IMG/VR virus record: IMGVR_UViG_3300043434_000693
Coordinates: 32,241 to 96,240 of that record
Origin: a virus
DNA: 64,000 bases
Strand: one strand, 5' to 3'
Made by a program: the position numbers and the translations under genes. Of the stretch, positions 5,653-20,926 are shown piece after piece (the first letter of the stretch is position 1; each line of letters opens with the position of its first letter). Under the pieces are notes generated by a model. That model made no database searches. It had not been told where the DNA came from and worked only from the letters and a program-made list of their open reading frames with translations.

Positions 5653-6681
5653 TTATGCGTTTTCAATTTGGACAACTGATCCACTTGCTGCTGCGAAAGA
5701 CCATTGTGCAACTTCACCGGTTGCAAATAACCAATCTAAGTCACCACCGTCGTCAACTAAGCGGGTTAACTTTGCTTTATGTGCAGTTAATTTAGTAACA
5801 TAATATGTGTTACCGTTCGCATCTGTTGCAATAATTGTTGCTTCGCCTGCTGCTGGAGTATCTGCAACTAATGTCACACGGCCTACACCTTGTGCAGTCT
5901 TAACAATATACTTCTTGCTTCCAACTTGACGAAGAATATCGCCTAATACTGCTGATGTTCCATCTCCTGAAACATTTCCTGCTGCACCTGCTGCAGGGAC
6001 CCATGCAGTAATTTGAATAGCGTTTTCTTGATTGGTTACACTACCGACATTACCTGTATCAGTAGTTAATACTGCTGTTTTAGTTGCATTACCGGTCATA
6101 GTAATTGCAGGAGCAGAAACATATCCTGAACCTTTTTCGTCAATTGCTACTGCTAACACGCCCCATGTAATGTCAACTCTTAGATTGTTACCGGTGCCGC
6201 CTGTTGTAAACATACTAGCAACTGTGCTACCTGGATCACTAACTGCTGTAGCTCCATTATATGCAAGTACAGTATATGAACCGCCGTCTACAAGTTCAAC
6301 TGTAGTAGCTGCTCCGCCACCATCAACACTTTTAATTCTAAAACTTGCACGAGTAGTATAGGTACCGTCAACTGTTCCAGTGCCACCAGGTAAAGAACCG
6401 CTTCCTAATTCTACTAGTTCTTCATCGATATAGCTTCCGCCGCCATTATCAATACTAACTGATTTAACTACCATTGTTACAGTACCAGCTGTTGCAGTTA
6501 CACCAGTAGGTAAAGTTGGTGCTGCAAAGGTTACTGAAGGAACTGCAATGTAGTTATTGTTTGTTCCACCGATAGTTACACTTGCAACTCCTTGACCGCC
6601 AATTCCATAATTGTCAGCGGTTGTGCTTGCGGAACCGACATTGCGGTTACCAAAAAATTTCTTATTTAATGGGCGTCCCAT
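5653..6681 (-). CDS. Virion structural protein (possible head decoration)
   Basis: 342 aa, Gly/Thr/Ala-rich, with I...GSGY..AP repeats. Has its own late promoter and an AAAGGAG RBS; lies immediately downstream of the capsid gene. Confidence 0.55.
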   Translation of the reverse strand: MGRPLNKKFFGNRNVGSASTTADNYGIGGQGVASVTIGGTNNNYIAVPSVTFAAPTLPTGVTATAGTVTMVVKSVSIDNGGGSYIDEELVELGSGSLPGGTGTVDGTYTTRASFRIKSVDGGGAATTVELVDGGSYTVLAYNGATAVSDPGSTVASMFTTGGTGNNLRVDITWGVLAVAIDEKGSGYVSAPAITMTGNATKTAVLTTDTGNVGSVTNQENAIQITAWVPAAGAAGNVSGDGTSAVLGDILRQVGSKKYIVKTAQGVGRVTLVADTPAAGEATIIATDANGNTYYVTKLTAHKAKLTRLVDDGGDLDWLFATGEVAQWSFAAASGSVVQIENA

Positions 6682-6744
6682 TTGTTTTCTCCTTTAAAAC
6701 GTTCTAGGTTTACGCAGAGGGATTCTGCATAATTTTAGACAAAG

Positions 6745-6752
6745 TATTTATC
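6745..6752 (-). promoter_or_regulatory. T4-type late promoter box (GATAAATA)
   Basis: 7/8 match to TATAAATA; intergenic, upstream of the 6681 start. Confidence 0.6.
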
Positions 6753-6755
6753 AGA

Positions 6756-16005: not shown

Positions 16006-16226
16006 TTAGACTAGACCAATCTCAAATAGCAGATCATCTAATTGGGCTTGACAACGATGTTAAAAATTTCAAATTAGAGCTTTATCGGCTTGTTTGGTAT
16101 ATGCGCGGGGGCGTTAGTATCGATAATCTGTTGTATAATTTAAGTTATGACGACAGATCTGCGATGTACGCTGTTGTAAAAGACAACATCGAATTAACTA
16201 AAGAAACAAAAATGCCCCTTATTTAG
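15987..16226 (+). CDS. Start-less ORF in the -1 frame; probable frameshift extension of the gp26-like protein (gp51/GT-like)
   Basis: The frame opens after TAA at 15978-15980, passes the slippery T TTT TTC (15987-15993) and reads RESLIRLDQSQIADHLIGLDNDVKNFKLELYRLVWYMRGGVSIDNLLYNLSYDDRSAMYAVVKDNIELTKETKMPLI to TAG at 16224-16226. It fills the gap between neighbouring genes exactly. Confidence 0.75.
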   Translation, partial: FFRESLIRLDQSQIADHLIGLDNDVKNFKLELYRLVWYMRGGVSIDNLLYNLSYDDRSAMYAVVKDNIELTKETKMPLI

Positions 16227-17221
16227 AATGCTTTGATTCTAGTCTTCCCGGTTGCTGTATTTTTTTGAACATTTGGACTTATATCTACCCATGTTCCTTG
16301 ATCTGGGATTTGAGGAGTAGATACTTTAGGCTTTTCGCTCGGGGTAGGCGATTGTTTTGGTGCTGGTTGAGTTTTATTACTAGTCGACGGTTCAACTGAT
16401 TGATCAGTAGGTACTTCCGGTGATTGATCAGTAGATGTATCGGCTGTTTCCGAACCTTTAATTGCTGTAATTAATGCATTCTTTGCTTTATTATACAATG
16501 CACCCGAAATCTCAACACCTTCTGCTGTTATCAAAGTAGCAAGTGCTTTCCTTCCTTCTGCGGTATTAATCCATGCATAGAATGCTGCGGTAGCAGCAGG
16601 TGCTAGTGCAGACAATAACGGTCCCACAAATGGAATTGCACCTAAAACTTTAGTAATAATAGGACCACTAATTAACATTGCAGCAATGCTATCTACTAAT
16701 AAACCTTGTTCAAATAGTTTACGTTCGTTAAACGAAGCTTCTGTCATTTTATTGCTTGCTAGTTGTTGTTCGTATGCAGACATATGAACATAATATTGAT
16801 AAAAAGGTGCTATTAATCCTATTGATTTAACAAATTTTAACAACTTACCTGCACTAGACTTAAAAATTTCAAACCCTTTACCAATTTGAGATCCTATTTG
16901 AGCTGCACTTTGTGAAACTGATAATTCTCTAGCAAGTGCAGGTGCTTTTGACTGGGCAAGTTTTAATACTCGTGGATCATTAGCAAACTTCTTTCCTACA
17001 ATAGCTTCAATTTGTGCTGGATCTGTAGTTCTTATAGATCCATGATCTAAAATTTCATTAGCCCATGTTTGTGCTAAATTTTTTATAGCATCTGGCTTTG
17101 ATAAAGTATTTGCGATACTTGACATCGCCGAAGAAACACCAGGGATAGCAGAAGCCATCTTTGTAAATATTCCTGCTTCATTAAGATCATTATTTTCGGA
17201 AACAATTTCACTAATTTTCAT
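16223..17221 (-). CDS. Hypothetical late protein with hydrophobic helices (possible internal/ejected virion protein)
   Basis: 332 aa. N-terminus MKISEIVSE..DLNE, hydrophobic segments around residues 185-220 and a Pro/Thr/Ser-rich tail; preceded by a perfect late promoter. Confidence 0.6.
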   Translation of the reverse strand: MKISEIVSENNDLNEAGIFTKMASAIPGVSSAMSSIANTLSKPDAIKNLAQTWANEILDHGSIRTTDPAQIEAIVGKKFANDPRVLKLAQSKAPALARELSVSQSAAQIGSQIGKGFEIFKSSAGKLLKFVKSIGLIAPFYQYYVHMSAYEQQLASNKMTEASFNERKLFEQGLLVDSIAAMLISGPIITKVLGAIPFVGPLLSALAPAATAAFYAWINTAEGRKALATLITAEGVEISGALYNKAKNALITAIKGSETADTSTDQSPEVPTDQSVEPSTSNKTQPAPKQSPTPSEKPKVSTPQIPDQGTWVDISPNVQKNTATGKTRIKAF

Positions 17222-17242
17222 TTTTCAAAATCCTTATAGAAC

Positions 17243-17250
17243 TATTTATA
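17243..17250 (-). promoter_or_regulatory. Late promoter (perfect TATAAATA)
   Basis: Exact consensus 21 nt upstream of the 17221 ATG, abutting a hairpin. Confidence 0.75.
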
Positions 17251-17320
17251 GTTGAACTACGTTCAACTGTGTTTTCGCTATCGCTCAACACATATTGTTT
17301 CTTTTTTGAAGGGCGAAGCA
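17250..17320. repeat. Cluster of short inverted repeats with DNA-type GNA/GNNA loops
   Basis: Minus strand: AGTTGAAC-GTA-GTTCAACT (17250-17268) and TGTGTT-GA-GC-GATA-GC-GAA-AACACA (17268-17292). Plus strand: GCGAAGC (17313-17319). Confidence 0.6.
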
Positions 17321-17324
17321 TTTT

Positions 17325-17775
17325 TAAGATTATCTAGATTAATCGGCCATATTTCGCCCTGCGAGGGGCGAAAAAAATAAACTGGATATTATCTGAGTAT
17401 CACAGCCATATAGCGTTAGGACTATAATGTTACATAAAGATAGCATAAATCAATTAAATGTTATCTTTATGTAGCATTTCGTAGGCGGTCATCCGGTACC
17501 TACTCATCCCGTCTTCGTAATGACGGCGGTTTGCAAATATACGCTATAACATATATGCAAACGCGAAGGGTTTCCCTTCTCTTTTAGCCTTTATTGTTCT
17601 AGATAGTTTAAACCGGTTCTGTGAAGGCACATCCGATCATGGTCCTGTTAAGGATACTAAACTAAATCTCTGCTACAGCCCAGAAATCCCGCCTTGCGAC
17701 TTCACCAAGGGTAAGGACACCTAAATATCTTGCCGGTGTGAGCATTATCTGTAGTTAAATTGCCTAAATATGCCT
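17325..17775 (-). ncRNA. Putative large structured non-coding RNA (family not recognised)
   Basis: No ORF. About 46% GC over 17481-17740 by hand count, in an AT-rich genome. At least ten local stems plus long-range complementarities: 17409-17416/17541-17548, 17331-17338/17598-17605, 17394-17399/17501-17506 and 17587-17591/17624-17628. Strand inferred from the operon direction. Confidence 0.6.
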
Positions 17776-17778
17776 TAA

Positions 17779-18429
17779 TTATGATTTTTTATTAGATAGA
17801 AGCCTGCCACGAATAAACCCTTCGCTTGGACAATTTATAGACATTGTACAAGTAACTCCGTTATTCCACCAAACTTTACCTTTACGTTTTTCTTTAAGAA
17901 TTGCCTTTTGTTCATCAGTCCATTGGTAGTTGAACATAGAATTGTTTTCTCCTGATGTATGCGATCGAGGACCTCTACACGAATTAGAAATTTTTTGTCT
18001 ACGTTCTTCTGATATTGGACCGTATTTTTTACCTAAATGTGATTGTCTTTTCTTTTCTTTAGTTTCTTTTGAATCTTTAATGCCTAATCTGCTAGGCGGA
18101 GTTCTAGGATTCTTTTTATTATATTCACTTAGTTTAACATTTTTAAATCCGGGTGATTGCCCATCGATACCGTTTTCGATAACGCAATTTGCCCATTCTT
18201 TTGATTCTACTATCATATTTTTTACAGAAAAATCAATTGCAAACTTTTTACACTCTTCTAAATTGTCAAATTTCCAAATTTGAACAGTTTCAACATAGTT
18301 TCCATGCTGTATTACATGTCGTTTCCAATAAATCCCTGACCCTTTATATTTGTAAGGATCCTTAATAGTTTTACCAAAGTAGTTTAAACCTGTGACTAAA
18401 TGGCGTTTGTGATATAGATATGTAATCAC
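17779..18429 (-). CDS. Free-standing homing endonuclease (GIY-YIG-like N-terminus plus NUMOD3-type repeats)
   Basis: Motifs TYLYHKRH...GLNYFGKT and YKGSG.YW, then SKETKEKKRQSHLGK, SEERRQKIS, GENNSMF and KVWWNNG...GFIRGRL. GTG start overlaps the upstream TGA. Confidence 0.85.
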   Translation of the reverse strand: MITYLYHKRHLVTGLNYFGKTIKDPYKYKGSGIYWKRHVIQHGNYVETVQIWKFDNLEECKKFAIDFSVKNMIVESKEWANCVIENGIDGQSPGFKNVKLSEYNKKNPRTPPSRLGIKDSKETKEKKRQSHLGKKYGPISEERRQKISNSCRGPRSHTSGENNSMFNYQWTDEQKAILKEKRKGKVWWNNGVTCTMSINCPSEGFIRGRLLSNKKS

Positions 18430-18860
18430 CCAAATAATTTACCATTTATATGTTTCTTATGAACTCGTACTTGCACATGACCGTTGTAATAAGAATCTGA
18501 TTCTAATACTTTTCTACTAAATTGTTCTCTTGCCTCTACGTACGAACACTCTGCCTTTGATTTACAATAATAAAGTATTTCTCGTTTGAAGTTATCTTCG
18601 CCTAATTTTTTAACGTCGTTATTAAGCTCGATGTTTGATCCGTAATATTCCCGCCAGTCTGAATCTATTTTAGTTTTAATTCTTTTCTTTTTCTTCTTGC
18701 CGTTTTTTAATGTAACAACCTTATAAGAAGTTTTTGTGAATTGTGCTAGTTTTTTACCAATATACATTCGACCATTGGTTAAATTAGTGATGAGATAGAC
18801 AAAGCCTACACAATCGTCGGGAAGAGTCTCGATGATTTTTTTCTTGTAGTGCCATGACAT
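18426..18860 (-). CDS. Small GIY-YIG endonuclease (SegE-like family)
   Basis: Motifs GFVYLITNLTNGRMYIGKK, SDWREYYGS, FKREIL, YVEAREQF and YYNG. Confidence 0.85.
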   Translation of the reverse strand: MSWHYKKKIIETLPDDCVGFVYLITNLTNGRMYIGKKLAQFTKTSYKVVTLKNGKKKKKRIKTKIDSDWREYYGSNIELNNDVKKLGEDNFKREILYYCKSKAECSYVEAREQFSRKVLESDSYYNGHVQVRVHKKHINGKLFG

Positions 18861-18865
18861 ATCCT

Positions 18866-19147
18866 TTAATTATCATCGCTTAATCCGTCATTTGAGCCAT
18901 TTTGATTTTTTCGAGCCTCTATTCTTTTTAAGCCTGCTTTACTTGCCTTCATAGGAGCAAAGTTATCATATCTCCATTCTTGGATAAGTTTTCTTTGCTC
19001 CGAACATAATTTTCTAATCTTTTTTAAACTATTTCTTACCCTAATTGCTGATCTATGACTTTGATTTACTGCCCAAAGTTGATTTAGTTCGAAATATTTT
19101 CGAAACTCTTTCATTATTTCGTCATGTAATTCAGAATCTGGAATCAT
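18866..19147 (-). CDS. Small basic helical protein, possibly DNA-binding (Hc1-like pattern)
   Basis: 93 aa; SAIRVRNSLKKIRKLCSEQRKLIQE segment. Confidence 0.5.
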   Translation of the reverse strand: MIPDSELHDEIMKEFRKYFELNQLWAVNQSHRSAIRVRNSLKKIRKLCSEQRKLIQEWRYDNFAPMKASKAGLKRIEARKNQNGSNDGLSDDN

Positions 19148-20926
19148 TTATCTAATCTCTAAATCGTTTGCATACGATGTAAAACCGTTTTCTTTGATAA
19201 CCTTTAATACATTACTAACACGACCTACTAATTCGTCTTTATGACTAATTAAGAAAATATTTTTCTTACGTTCTCGACCCATCTTCTTTAGTACAGATAA
19301 CGCATTTTCAACACCGTTTGCATCCAACCCGTTATCAATAAGTTCGTCTACAAACAACAAATTAATTCCTTGATATAAACTTTCCCAAACATCTCTAAAT
19401 GCCCATGAAAGACCTAAAATTAATCGATTCCTTTCTCCTCTTGACAAGTTATCAAAGTCTAAGTCTTGCCCCAATTGTGTAATTTCAACTGTTAGATCGT
19501 TTTGGAATGTGACAAGATGCGGTAATCCCATCTTGTCTAGATAATAAGTTAACCGATTGTTCAAATAACCTAAATTTTGATCGATAATCTTTTTTCTTAT
19601 AAAACTGTCCTTACTTGTTAACAATTTTAATAGGAATTCTTGATGTTCTTTTAACTCGGTTAACGAATTTATTTCTTCCCACGAAATGTCTTGTAACGCA
19701 GTATTTCGTAAATTATCAATTTGCTCTTGATAAGGGTCTATTTCGTCAGATTTATTAATCAGTTGTGTTTCAAGAGACGCAAGATTATTTTGATGTTTTA
19801 ATGCTTCTTCGACGGTTTCATAGTACGGTTCTGGTCTTAGACCTAGTTCACCAAACGATTGAAGTTCAAGTGACACTTTGTTCAATTGAGATGATACATT
19901 GTGAAGATAGTCTTGCGATTCAGATAAGTGGCTAGTAGCAAGAGCAGTTAACTCTTCATGTTTATGATCATGCAGCTCTTGATCACACGCATGACATGTT
20001 TTATTCTTTAAACTTTCTAATTCTTTAGCATACTTGTCAGATGTTTTTTGAGCCTGTATAACTGATGATTCTAGTGTAGCTTTTTCTTTAGTAAGACTCT
20101 TAATCTTAGCTGATGCTGCATCGTATTCTTTAACGGTTGCATGTACTAATAATTCTGCTTCAATATCAATACTTTCTAATTCAACGATAGCTTTACCGAT
20201 TTTTTCTAAAGTTTGATATTTTTGTTGATTCCATGCAGACAACTTTTTCTCGAGACTATCGATACTTTCTTGTATTTTTTCGTTAGTTTTTTTAATTGCT
20301 TCGATGTTAGCAGTCTCTTGAATTATTTGATCTTTTGTGGATTTAATTTTAATTTTTAAAGATTCTGCCTTATCGGATAATTGTGTAATCCCTAACAGTT
20401 GTTCGATGATTTCTCTCTGATCTGAAGACCTCATAGATAAAAACGGTTCGGAGTAGGTATTGAGCATAAGAATATGCTTGGCCATAGTGTGGCTCATACC
20501 AATCAAATCAGTTAAATCTTTTTGAGTTTCTCGATTGTCACCTTGTGCATCATCAGTTTCTTCTTGTTCTTGTTCTTGATCGTTAACATAAAATTTAAGA
20601 ATAGACGGTTTCCTTCCTCGTTCGATGCGATAGTTGACACCGTTTTTTTCAAATGCAAGTGTTACTAACATATTTTTATTATTAATTTTATTGATCAAGT
20701 TATCTTTTTTAATGTTAGTCAAAGCAATGCCAAACAACGCATAACTTAATGCATTAACGATGGTAGTTTTTCCGGTACCGTTTCTTGATCCGCTATCGTC
20801 TCCACCTTGATCGAGATTTTCACCGAGAACTAATGTTAAGTTTTCTCGAGCGAAATCTACAGCCTGGGTTTGATTACCCACACTCATAAAATTTTTTACG
20901 GTTAAAGTTTTTAAATTAATAGACAT
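19148..20926 (-). CDS. gp46: Recombination nuclease ATPase subunit (gp46 / Rad50 / SbcC-like)
   Basis: KNFMSVGN, Walker A GTGKTT, coiled coil with CHAC zinc hook, signature LSRGE, Walker B LLFVDE and ISH. Confidence 0.95.
   Translation of the reverse strand: MSINLKTLTVKNFMSVGNQTQAVDFARENLTLVLGENLDQGGDDSGSRNGTGKTTIVNALSYALFGIALTNIKKDNLINKINNKNMLVTLAFEKNGVNYRIERGRKPSILKFYVNDQEQEQEETDDAQGDNRETQKDLTDLIGMSHTMAKHILMLNTYSEPFLSMRSSDQREIIEQLLGITQLSDKAESLKIKIKSTKDQIIQETANIEAIKKTNEKIQESIDSLEKKLSAWNQQKYQTLEKIGKAIVELESIDIEAELLVHATVKEYDAASAKIKSLTKEKATLESSVIQAQKTSDKYAKELESLKNKTCHACDQELHDHKHEELTALATSHLSESQDYLHNVSSQLNKVSLELQSFGELGLRPEPYYETVEEALKHQNNLASLETQLINKSDEIDPYQEQIDNLRNTALQDISWEEINSLTELKEHQEFLLKLLTSKDSFIRKKIIDQNLGYLNNRLTYYLDKMGLPHLVTFQNDLTVEITQLGQDLDFDNLSRGERNRLILGLSWAFRDVWESLYQGINLLFVDELIDNGLDANGVENALSVLKKMGRERKKNIFLISHKDELVGRVSNVLKVIKENGFTSYANDLEIR

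What the first reader, a model, noticed from the sequence alone, without database searches (positions are those of the whole stretch)
17325..18860. Candidate new system: a large ornate non-coding RNA directly downstream of two GIY-YIG nuclease genes
Seen in sequence: the 557-nt gap 17222-17778 is by far the largest non-coding stretch in an otherwise gene-packed window, and it is GC-enriched (about 46% over 17481-17740, hand count). Local stems tile it almost continuously: 17717-21/17735-39, 17692-96/17706-10, 17668-72/17681-85, 17643-46/17651-54, 17611-16/17633-38, 17565-70/17574-79, 17529-35/17556-62, 17509-13/17522-26, 17481-85/17499-503, a 21-bp stem 17426-46/17458-78, and 17352-59/17366-73. 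There are also long-range or pseudoknot complementarities: 8 bp at 17409-16/17541-48, 8 bp at 17331-38/17598-605, 6 bp at 17394-99/17501-06 and 5 bp at 17587-91/17624-28. AGATAAT recurs three times on the minus strand (17744-50, 17388-94, 17329-35). The element starts right after the endonuclease stop with no terminator, at the end of the sigma70-driven gp55-gp47-gp46 operon. The SegE-like GIY-YIG protein is essentially a bare catalytic domain with a very basic insert (KNGKKKKKRIKTK). Established: large ornate ncRNAs occur in phages (GOLLD, ROOL), and nuclease genes with adjacent structured RNAs define HEARO/OMEGA systems, which use HNH/RuvC nucleases rather than GIY-YIG. Inference: this is a functional RNA of about 450 nt, possibly a scaffold or guide for the GIY-YIG protein, a ribozyme, or a replication pre-primer. 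I could not assign it to a known family. Strand evidence is mixed: several stems have G-U pairs on the minus strand, but the 21-bp stem has them on the plus strand.
Basis: partly seen in the sequence, partly recalled or inferred. Interest (0 to 1): 0.9.

Follow-up and report, generated by a model that had tools for sequence, protein, structure and literature searches.

The report
Extended Polynucleobacter-1 RNA beside nuclease genes
The gene-free gap encodes a real, intricately folded RNA of about 500 bases whose first third is an already catalogued motif; it lies next to small DNA-cutting enzyme genes in many freshwater phages but also occurs without them in bacteria, so it is probably not their guide, and its job is still unknown.

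Summary
Window 17745-17251 (minus strand) encodes a structured RNA of about 495 nt.

It is not unassignable. Its 5' 144 nt match Rfam Polynucleobacter-1 (RF01718) at 71 bits, E 1e-14. The other two thirds are in no Rfam family, but they are conserved in more than 150 related freshwater T4-like phage contigs and in Polynucleobacter genomic islands.

An 80-pair, 16-helix model with two pseudoknots is 94% paired. 45 pairs show compensatory changes, and no shuffle reached this (0 of 500).

Two 11-nt boxes, 17398-17388 and 17339-17329, carry the same 7-mer in 110 of 114 distinct phage sequences. There are 12 variants and about 34 joint changes on a tree. I found no complementary partner.

A catalytic-domain-only SegE-type GIY-YIG gene usually precedes the RNA, but the link is not obligate:
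- five phage contigs have a PD-(D/E)XK nuclease gene there instead;
- bacterial copies lie between DUF6641 and integrase genes;
- SegE-like homologues in Melnitz, phiM12 and P-HM1 have no RNA.

The 216-aa ORF is an insertion unique to this window and looks like a homing endonuclease.

A guide or scaffold role is unsupported. This scan has met the same RNA family on other DNA.

The parts
17251..17745 (-). Full structured RNA of about 495 nt: an extended Polynucleobacter-1 RNA, called 'twin-box' RNA in this scan
   Evidence: nhmmer finds nearly the whole gap in about 60 gp46-anchored loci and in 115 further viral loci. An 80-pair model is 94.3% paired with 45 compensatory pairs.
17601..17744 (-). 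5' domain, equal to Rfam RF01718 Polynucleobacter-1
   Evidence: cmscan gives 71.4 bits (gathering score 37), E 1.2e-14, model positions 1-141 of 141.
17587..17628 (-). Pseudoknot A: hairpin loop GCCU (17628-17625) pairs with AGGC (17590-17587)
   Evidence: Kept in most sequences, with a few double changes (helix 5).
17529..17562 (-). Long hairpin P8; its loop 17547-17541 forms pseudoknot B
   Evidence: All 11 pairs show compensatory changes (helix 7).
17410..17416 (-). 3' strand of pseudoknot B (ACGCUAU); pairs with 17547-17541
   Evidence: 6 of 7 pairs are compensatory and 99.1% of cells are paired (helix 8).
17484..17500 (-). Nearly invariant core GGUACCGGAUGACCGCC (helices P10 and P10b)
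   Evidence: Invariant columns in A1. The flanking pairs covary (helix 10).
17429..17475 (-). 21-bp hairpin, a variable expansion segment
   Evidence: Shared only with L010. Other lineages have inserts of other lengths at the same site.
17388..17398 (-). Twin box 1: ACUC + AGAUAAU
   Evidence: Its 7-mer is identical to that of box 2 in 110 of 114 distinct viral sequences.
17352..17373 (-). GC-rich hairpin P14 between the two boxes
   Evidence: Conserved, with compensatory changes (helix 13).
17329..17339 (-). Twin box 2: AUCU + AGAUAAU
   Evidence: Same evidence as box 1. The spacing between the boxes is 55-60 nt.
17269..17291 (-). Hairpin P16 with a GA/GAA internal loop and a GNRA-type tetraloop (GUGUU GA GC GAUA GC GAA AACAC)
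   Evidence: The outer stem covaries (GUUC/GAAC, GUGUU/AACAC, GCUUC/GAAGC). The same motif is present in the bacterial copies.
17251..17267 (-). Terminal hairpin; marks the 3' end of the conserved element
   Evidence: Forms in 48 of 49 sequences, with 26 distinct sequences.
17243..17250 (-). T4-type late promoter motif TATAAATA for the downstream gene
   Evidence: Read directly from the sequence. ATAAATA is conserved upstream of the next ATG in the relatives.
16223..17221 (-). Downstream 332-aa gene; variable among relatives and of no known family
   Evidence: No Pfam or PHROG family. tblastn relatives in only 2 of 80 loci.
17779..18429 (-). 216-aa ORF, probably a homing endonuclease, inserted between the SegE-like gene and the RNA
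   Evidence: Absent from all 80 gp46-anchored related loci. Its C-terminal part matches the I-TevI DNA-binding domain, PDB 1i3j, E 0.003. NUMOD3 is weak. Its nearest Atlas clusters carry NUMOD3 and SegE_GIY-YIG.
18426..18860 (-). 144-aa SegE-type GIY-YIG nuclease, catalytic domain only
   Evidence: PF19835, E 7e-33. The motif residues are at least 95% conserved in 64 distinct homologues of 141-150 aa.
18866..19147 (-). 93-aa basic protein of unknown family, conserved between gp46 and the SegE-like gene
   Evidence: tblastn finds it in most of the related loci. No Pfam or PHROG hit.
19148..20926 (-). gp46-like SbcC/Rad50-type ATPase; used as the anchor for related loci
   Evidence: AAA_23 and SMC_N hits. 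597 relatives in IMG/VR.

Best explanation
The gap encodes an autonomous, highly structured non-coding RNA of about 495 nt (window 17745 to 17251, minus strand). It is a full-length member of a family of which only the 5' 141 nt are catalogued, as Polynucleobacter-1, RF01718.

Shown:
- It folds into three domains with at least 16 helices and two pseudoknots.
- It ends in a conserved hairpin directly before the T4-type late promoter of the next gene.
- It carries two boxes 55-60 nt apart whose 7-nt cores are always identical to each other and change together between lineages.

Inferred:
- It is made as the 3' extension of the gp46 / 93-aa / SegE-like transcript. Only 20-45 nt separate the upstream stop codon from the first helix, and no terminator lies between them.
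- It works on its own or with host factors, not as a partner of the neighbouring nuclease. The RNA is the only element that the phages and the Polynucleobacter islands share.
- The nuclease genes next to it (GIY-YIG, PD-(D/E)XK, and in this window a second endonuclease-like ORF) are best read as free-standing, homing-type genes that settle beside a very conserved target.
- The twin boxes most likely present one short 'address' twice to a trans partner, probably a nucleic acid. That would make them a specificity tag that differs between competing elements.
For: Identity and conservation:
- Rfam hit on the minus strand.
- Whole-length conservation in about 60 gp46-anchored loci and 115 more viral loci.
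- RNAalifold predicts 57 pairs, 33 of them compensatory.
- The 80-pair model is 94.3% paired against 81.2% in shuffles. Covariation is 0.380 against 0.144 (0 of 500 shuffles reach it) and 0.04-0.08 when the partners are slid.
- Pairing is 94.3% in sense and 89.4% in antisense.

Twin boxes:
- Identical in 50 of 50, 67 of 67 and 110 of 114 sequences, with 12 variants and about 34 parsimony changes.
- The two RNA copies in one Polynucleobacter genome carry different box words, AGCGAAA and AGAGAAA. Each copy has the same word in both of its boxes.

Independence from the nuclease:
- 12 of 12 bacterial copies lie between a DUF6641 gene and a 188-aa Phage_integrase gene, with no GIY-YIG gene among the ORFs within about 6 kb.
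- No neighbour protein of the islands has a homologue in the phage loci.
- Five phage contigs have a PDDEXK_15 gene in the place of the GIY-YIG gene.
- L313 has another context altogether.
- SegE-like homologues in Melnitz (53% identity), phiM12 and P-HM1 have no RNA behind them.
- No SegE protein column tracks the boxes; mutual information is at most 0.39.

Landing-pad reading:
- The 216-aa ORF is present only in this window, between the SegE-like stop and the intact leader of the RNA.
Against: - In 85% of 108 true viral loci the SegE-like gene ends within 150 nt of the RNA start, and in another 9% it lies just upstream of an inserted ORF.
- When it is missing, another small nuclease gene often takes its place. 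A functional nuclease-RNA pairing would also predict this pattern.
- The SegE-like protein has no DNA-binding domain and is as well conserved as gp46, which is unlike a decaying selfish gene.
- No transcript data could be obtained, so co-transcription and the RNA ends are inferred.
- No partner of the boxes was found, so the 'address' idea rests only on the identity pattern.
Confidence: 0.6

Rival explanations
1. Nuclease-RNA particle. The RNA is a scaffold, regulator or guide for the small catalytic-domain-only nuclease encoded just upstream, and the two identical boxes dock a nuclease dimer or specify its target.
For: - The nuclease gene is adjacent in 92 of 108 viral loci, and in 10 more with an insert between.
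- In five loci an unrelated PD-(D/E)XK nuclease gene occupies the same place.
- The GIY-YIG protein lacks a DNA-binding domain, carries a basic insert, and keeps its catalytic residues.
- The RNA starts 20-45 nt after the stop codon.
Against: - Bacterial copies have no nuclease neighbour and share no protein with the phage loci.
- L313 has no recognisable nuclease next to the RNA.
- The SegE-like family is widespread without the RNA: 528 phage records, of which three were checked.
- The box words changed about 34 times, yet no protein column follows them.
- No matching or complementary 7-mer sits at a fixed place within 6-8 kb.
Confidence: 0.18
2. Cis-acting element of the operon. The RNA is a 3' UTR or processing and stability module, or a read-through control (termination or antitermination) between the early/middle gp46 operon and the downstream late gene.
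For: - It lies at the end of a transcription unit.
- A conserved terminal hairpin is followed directly by a late promoter.
- Weinberg et al. marked the motif as possibly cis-regulatory.
Against: - About 500 nt with two pseudoknots and invariant junctions is far more than such roles need.
- The downstream gene has its own promoter and varies between relatives.
- In bacteria the RNA stands alone, transcribed divergently from DUF6641, and a variable gene may lie between it and the integrase gene.
Confidence: 0.1
3. Ribozyme or self-processing RNA, for example one that cuts or joins at the two identical boxes.
For: - The size, the pseudoknots and the invariant unpaired nucleotides resemble large ribozymes.
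- Two identical sites could be two substrates of one active site.
Against: - No match to any ribozyme or intron model in Rfam at E up to 1 or up to 5.
- No internal sequence complementary to the boxes covaries with them.
- There are no flanking exons.
Confidence: 0.05
4. DNA-level element: an origin, a recombination site or a nuclease target whose symmetry only mimics RNA structure.
For: - The plus strand folds even better in silico.
- Nuclease and recombinase genes lie next to it.
- The boxes are direct repeats.
Against: - 243 G-U cells favour one strand.
- The pseudoknots covary.
- It matches a curated RNA family.
Confidence: 0.03

Closest known systems
Polynucleobacter-1 RNA motif (Rfam RF01718; Weinberg et al. 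2010, Genome Biol 11:R31, PMC2864571)
   Same: The 5' 144 nt match the whole model well above the gathering score. The habitat (fresh water, Polynucleobacter) is the same. The 2010 supplement already placed most examples downstream of one gene family, which has a possible cyanophage homologue, and sketched a 3' 'tail' with a pseudoknot.
   Different: The catalogued model is 141 nt, built from 16 mostly short metagenome reads, and no purified phage was known to carry it. Here the RNA is about 470-580 nt. It has a middle and a 3' domain, twin boxes and a terminal hairpin, and it is clearly carried by T4-like phages and by integrase-bearing bacterial islands.
HEARO / omega RNAs of IscB and TnpB (OMEGA systems)
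   Same: A nuclease ORF is followed on the same strand by a large structured RNA that begins at the end of the ORF.
   Different: No HEARO hit in Rfam. The nuclease is GIY-YIG or PD-(D/E)XK, not RuvC/HNH. There are no transposon ends and no terminal guide segment. RNA and nuclease each occur without the other.
GOLLD and ROOL large ornate RNAs of phages and prophages
   Same: Several hundred nucleotides, many helices and pseudoknots, carried by phages and by integrated elements of bacteria, function unknown.
   Different: No sequence or model match. The genomic setting is different. No twin-box feature is known to me in those families.
RNA-based immunity systems of P1/P7 (c4 RNA) and P4 (CI RNA)
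   Same: Short repeated boxes that differ between related elements and must match for the system to work. This part rests on my own knowledge of those systems.
   Different: In those systems the complementary boxes lie nearby in cis. Here no complementary word was found in the RNA or within 6-8 kb.
Free-standing homing endonuclease genes of T4-like phages (Seg and Mob genes)
   Same: Small GIY-YIG-type genes inserted between conserved genes. The 216-aa ORF of this window behaves like such an insertion.
   Different: The 144-aa SegE-like gene has only the catalytic domain, is present in most relatives, and is under purifying selection. It is no longer an obviously mobile gene.

Membership tests
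Polynucleobacter-1 RNA (RF01718) | Covariance-model score at or above the curated gathering score (37 bits) | tested here: met
   71.4 bits, E 1.2e-14, at 17601-17744 on the minus strand.
Polynucleobacter-1 RNA (RF01718) | Match over the whole model, with its helices kept | tested here: met
   Model positions 1-141 of 141 are matched. Helices P1, P4 and P6 show compensatory changes in relatives (helices 1, 2, 4).
Polynucleobacter-1 RNA (RF01718) | Location downstream of genes of GOS family 11034 (2010 supplement) | not testable with these tools
   The upstream gene in relatives is the SegE-like gene. The GOS family itself could not be looked up.
HEARO / OMEGA RNA-guided nuclease systems | RNA matches the HEARO or omega RNA models | tested here: not met
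   cmscan with E up to 1 finds only RF01718.
HEARO / OMEGA RNA-guided nuclease systems | Adjacent IscB/TnpB-type (RuvC, HNH) nuclease | tested here: not met
   The neighbours are SegE_GIY-YIG or PDDEXK_15.
HEARO / OMEGA RNA-guided nuclease systems | RNA and nuclease always travel together | tested here: not met
   Bacterial copies have no nuclease neighbour. The protein occurs without the RNA.
HEARO / OMEGA RNA-guided nuclease systems | Variable guide segment with matches to targets | tested here: inconclusive
   The only hypervariable constrained words are the 7-nt twin boxes. No fixed match lies within 6-8 kb, and hits in the 96-kb genome record are no more than chance would give. Seven nucleotides are too few for a genome-wide test.
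GOLLD / ROOL / other catalogued large RNAs | Match to the family covariance model | tested here: not met
   No hit at the gathering score in the window, at E up to 1 in the region, or at E up to 5 in a bacterial copy.
Group I intron with an intron-encoded GIY-YIG endonuclease | Intron model match and a host gene split into two exons | tested here: not met
   No Intron_gpI hit. The upstream genes end in stop codons and the downstream gene has its own late promoter and ATG.
GIY-YIG nucleases, SegE type (the 144-aa protein) | Profile match and conserved motif residues (GIY, YIG, Arg, Glu, Asn) | tested here: met
   PF19835, E 7e-33, profile positions 1-122 of 123. The residues are at least 95% conserved in 64 homologues.
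GIY-YIG nucleases, SegE type (the 144-aa protein) | C-terminal DNA-binding region, as in the T4 Seg proteins | tested here: not met
   The homologues are 141-150 aa long and the domain fills the protein.
GIY-YIG homing endonucleases (the 216-aa ORF) | GIY-YIG catalytic domain | tested here: inconclusive
   No Pfam or PHROG hit. The motif region aligns with the 144-aa protein only at E 0.65. The nearest Atlas clusters carry SegE_GIY-YIG in 15-38% of their members.
GIY-YIG homing endonucleases (the 216-aa ORF) | I-TevI-like / NUMOD3 DNA-binding region | tested here: inconclusive
   PDB 1i3j at E 0.003 over residues 148-194. NUMOD3 at E 0.029, below its cut-off.

The most novel reading that the evidence does not exclude
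The two always-identical 7-nt boxes are a programmable identity tag. Either they pair with a trans nucleic acid that co-evolves with them, or they contact each other in a way that needs identical bases, such as parallel homo-pairing. The RNA would then be a self/non-self or incompatibility device used by competing T4-like phages and Polynucleobacter islands, possibly licensing or blocking whichever nuclease or recombinase gene lies next to it.
Probability: 0.12. Interest if true: 0.85.

Novelty: new variant of a known kind. Interest (0 to 1): 0.6.

Why it matters
Large, ornate bacterial and phage RNAs of unknown function are rare, and each has proved informative. Here a 141-nt catalogue entry turns out to be one third of a 500-nt RNA with two pseudoknots, shared by abundant freshwater T4-like phages and by mobile islands of Polynucleobacter, a bacterium that can be grown in culture.

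The twin boxes are the strange part. Two words stay identical, not complementary, through about 34 joint changes, and ordinary base-pairing within the RNA does not explain this. Finding what reads the boxes would probably reveal the function. The cultured strains that carry the RNA make this testable.

The attractive idea of an RNA-guided GIY-YIG nuclease is not supported.

Tried and rejected
- Close DNA relatives among isolated phages: none found by blastn.
- Relatives of the downstream 332-aa protein as anchors: none in IMG/VR.
- tRNA or tmRNA reading: ARAGORN finds none in the window.
- A 16-mer pattern scan of bacterial genomes gave mostly chance hits. Only the six Polynucleobacter / betaproteobacterial loci were real.
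- Helix between box 1 and the sequence upstream of box 2 (17397-17392 with 17338-17332). It is invariant in the phages and cannot form in the bacterial copies, so it is neither supported nor excluded.
- Palindrome explanation of the boxes (AUCURGAU). It fails for variants such as GCAUAAU, whose prefix does not change.
- Internal anti-box: no alignment column has mutual information above 0.35 with any box position.
- Nearby complementary or third copy: no fixed position within 6-8 kb. In the 96-kb record of this phage, hits are no more than chance would give.
- Third box in the DUF6641 leader: the apparent matches are the Shine-Dalgarno sequence or a conserved motif that does not follow the boxes.
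- Complementarity of the freshwater-2 RNA of this window to the boxes: none.
- Short 3-bp stems closing each box into a 9-nt loop are plausible, with C-G at box 1 and U-A at box 2. They are too weak to decide, and at box 1 they compete with helix P9.
- No covariance model of my own was built. The MAFFT alignment misaligns P2, P3, P11 and the outer P16 stem, so these helices were left out of the formal count.
Full report
**What is in the sequence.** 17222-17778 is the largest internal ORF-free stretch of the window at 557 nt; the next is 217 nt. GC is 45.8% over 17481-17740 against 35.5% for the window. The gap lies between a 216-aa ORF (17779-18429) and a 332-aa ORF (16223-17221), and all genes here are on the minus strand. 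Both strands fold much better than shuffles, with z -4.96 for minus and -7.64 for plus.

**It belongs to a known family.** cmscan against Rfam 15 places Polynucleobacter-1 (RF01718) at 17601-17744 on the minus strand. The score is 71.4 bits against a gathering score of 37, E 1e-14, over the whole 141-position model. Nothing else in the gap matches at E up to 1. The motif comes from Weinberg et al. 2010 (PMC2864571), who built it from 16 sequences of fresh-water and estuary metagenomes plus Polynucleobacter. Their supplement says that most examples lie downstream of genes of one GOS family with a possible cyanophage homologue, that no purified phage carried the motif, and that a 3' part is not always detected. 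Their alignment file carries a 'tail' with a pseudoknot.

**The RNA is much longer than the catalogue entry.** Using gp46 as an anchor I fetched 80 related IMG/VR loci with gp46 at 65-76% identity. nhmmer with the gap sequence finds nearly its whole length in about 60 of them. A pattern scan brought 118 more viral loci, and 115 of these match a profile of the element. In the window the conserved element runs from about 17745 to 17251, which is 495 nt. It ends in a hairpin (17267-17251) that forms in 48 of 49 sequences with 26 different sequences. The T4-type late promoter motif TATAAATA (17250-17243) follows directly, 22 nt before the ATG of the next gene.

**Structure.**
- On a 49-sequence alignment (A1), RNAalifold predicts 57 pairs, 33 of them with compensatory changes.
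- My own model has 80 pairs in 16 helices, including two pseudoknots. It is 94.3% paired against 81.2% in shuffles.
- 45 pairs have changes on both sides, and the covariation score is 0.380 against 0.144. None of 500 shuffles reaches any of these values, and sliding the partners gives 0.04-0.08.
- Pseudoknot B (loop 17547-17541 with 17416-17410) has 6 compensatory pairs out of 7.
- 243 G-U cells make the window's minus strand the RNA strand, with 94.3% pairing against 89.4% on the other strand. This agrees with the Rfam hit.

- Most local stems are kept, and six of them covary.
- The 8-bp long-range pair 17409-16/17541-48 and the 5-bp pair 17587-91/17624-28 are the two pseudoknots.
- The pairs 17331-38/17598-605 and 17394-99/17501-06 are not conserved.
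- The 21-bp stem (17429-17475) is shared only with L010. It sits where other lineages have inserts of other lengths, so it is a variable expansion segment.

**Twin boxes.**
- Located independently of each other, their 7-mers are identical in 50 of 50, 67 of 67 and 110 of 114 distinct viral sequences. Three of the four exceptions are slips of my search pattern and one is a single-base difference.
- Twelve words occur, among them AGAUAAU, GGAUAAU, GGAUGAA, GGAUGAU, GCAUAAU and GAAUAAU. On a tree built with the boxes masked, the word changes about 34 times.
- The change is to the same base in both boxes, not to a complementary one.
- Nothing I searched follows the boxes. This covers every column of the RNA, fixed positions within 6-8 kb, the 96 kb held of this phage and the SegE-like protein.
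- I have no structural explanation. A partner in trans, or a contact that needs identical bases, remains open.

**Neighbours in phages.**
- In the gp46-anchored loci the order is gp46, a 93-aa basic protein, a 141-150-aa SegE-type GIY-YIG protein, then the RNA, which starts 20-45 nt after the stop codon.
- The protein is about 70% identical across the set, and its GIY, YIG, Arg, Glu and Asn residues are at least 95% conserved. It consists of the catalytic domain only.
- Among 108 true loci of the second set, 92 have this gene within 150 nt of the RNA and 10 have it upstream of an inserted ORF.
- Five (L238, L242, L272, L274, L303) have a 173-188-aa PDDEXK_15 endonuclease gene instead. L313 has an unrelated context.
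- The 216-aa ORF of this window is found in none of the 80 gp46-anchored related loci. It lies exactly between the SegE-like stop codon and the intact leader of the RNA.
- The tail of the 216-aa ORF resembles the I-TevI DNA-binding domain (PDB 1i3j, E 0.003), and its nearest Atlas clusters carry NUMOD3 and SegE_GIY-YIG. I read it as a recently inserted homing endonuclease gene. 'Two GIY-YIG genes' is thus solid for one gene and probable for the other.

**Bacterial copies.**
- RF01718 is found in 13 of 121 Polynucleobacter species genomes, sometimes twice.
- The bacterial RNAs are about 540-590 nt. They share the whole architecture: the 5' domain, a related core (GGAGACAGCGAAACCGCC), twin boxes, the GA/GNRA hairpin and the terminal hairpin.
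- In all 12 loci examined, the RNA lies between a divergently transcribed DUF6641 gene and a 188-aa Phage_integrase gene. Two unknown genes, an AAA ATPase gene and, in most loci, a 424-aa integrase gene follow, so this is an integrated mobile island.
- There is no GIY-YIG gene, and none of the island proteins has a homologue in any phage locus.
- Their box words (AGCGAAA, GGAGAAA, AGAGAAA, AACAAAA, AUCAAAA) are identical within an RNA in 9 of 12 cases.
- The two copies in one genome carry different words.

**The protein without the RNA.** tblastn finds the SegE-like protein in 528 phage records, mostly cyanophages. In Melnitz (53% identity), phiM12 and P-HM1 the gene is followed by other genes. 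There is no Rfam hit, no profile hit and no twin-box pattern.

**Reading.**
- The RNA is real, is transcribed from the minus strand, and is the only part common to the phage and island settings. It most likely acts by itself or with host factors.
- Three kinds of endonuclease gene pile up at its 5' edge. The simplest explanation is free-standing homing-type genes settling beside a very conserved sequence.
- The rival reading, that the RNA works with whichever small nuclease precedes it, is kept at about 0.18. The adjacency is strong and the replacement by PD-(D/E)XK is striking.
- A cis-regulatory role, a ribozyme and a DNA-level element are less likely, for the reasons given under the rivals.
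- Co-transcription with the operon is an inference. No terminator-like site lies between the genes and the RNA, promoter-like hits are at chance level, and read data could not be obtained.

**Novelty.** The family is known, but as a fragment. The full length, the middle and 3' domains, the phage carriage, the island context and the concerted twin boxes appear in no paper the library search could find. Earlier reports of this scan reached the same family, and the same twin-box feature, on other DNA. I checked their main claims independently here.

Noticed in passing
window 6679-6753 (minus strand): Second Rfam hit: freshwater-2 RNA (RF02980), 52.5 bits against a gathering score of 49.9. It lies in the 5' leader of a gene, just after a terminator-like hairpin and a TGATAAATA late-promoter-like motif. 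It has no complementarity to the twin boxes.
   Followed up: partly
L212 and L213 (genome G001, contig 1, about 401 kb and 419 kb): One Polynucleobacter genome carries two copies of the RNA 18 kb apart on the same strand. Each has the same set of neighbour genes, which suggests tandem islands. Their box words differ: AGCGAAA against AGAGAAA.
   Followed up: partly
L212 and L215 against the ten other bacterial loci (L213-L214, L216-L223): The three-gene block next to the 188-aa catalytic-domain-only tyrosine recombinase (two unknown genes plus an AAA ATPase) is inverted in 2 of 12 genomes. This could be a recombinase-driven invertible segment.
   Followed up: no
L238, L242 (same contig as L062), L272, L274, L303: In these related phages a PDDEXK_15 (PF24608) endonuclease gene of 173-188 aa replaces the GIY-YIG gene directly upstream of the RNA.
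   Followed up: partly
L239:10375-11148 and the same position in L245, L281, L286, L295, L311, L327: In a sub-lineage, a roughly 800-900-nt insert separates the SegE-like gene from the RNA. In L239 it holds a 257-aa ORF with no Pfam family.
   Followed up: no
L313:8982-9543 (minus strand): A full-length copy of the RNA (nhmmer E 3e-65) in a phage contig that has none of the window's neighbour genes. The ORFs on either side have no family.
   Followed up: partly
window 17243-17267 and the same place in relatives: A covarying hairpin followed at once by a T4 late promoter motif forms a composite unit in front of a variable gene. It recalls the promoter-stem-loop modules described for T4-like hyperplastic regions (title of PMC4122927, not read).
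   Followed up: no
phage records behind (for example NC_027204.1 gp201, NC_015280.1 PHM1_182): The SegE-type GIY-YIG domain protein is widely annotated as 'NAD synthetase' in phage records and in PHROG 447. This looks like a propagated misnomer.
   Followed up: no
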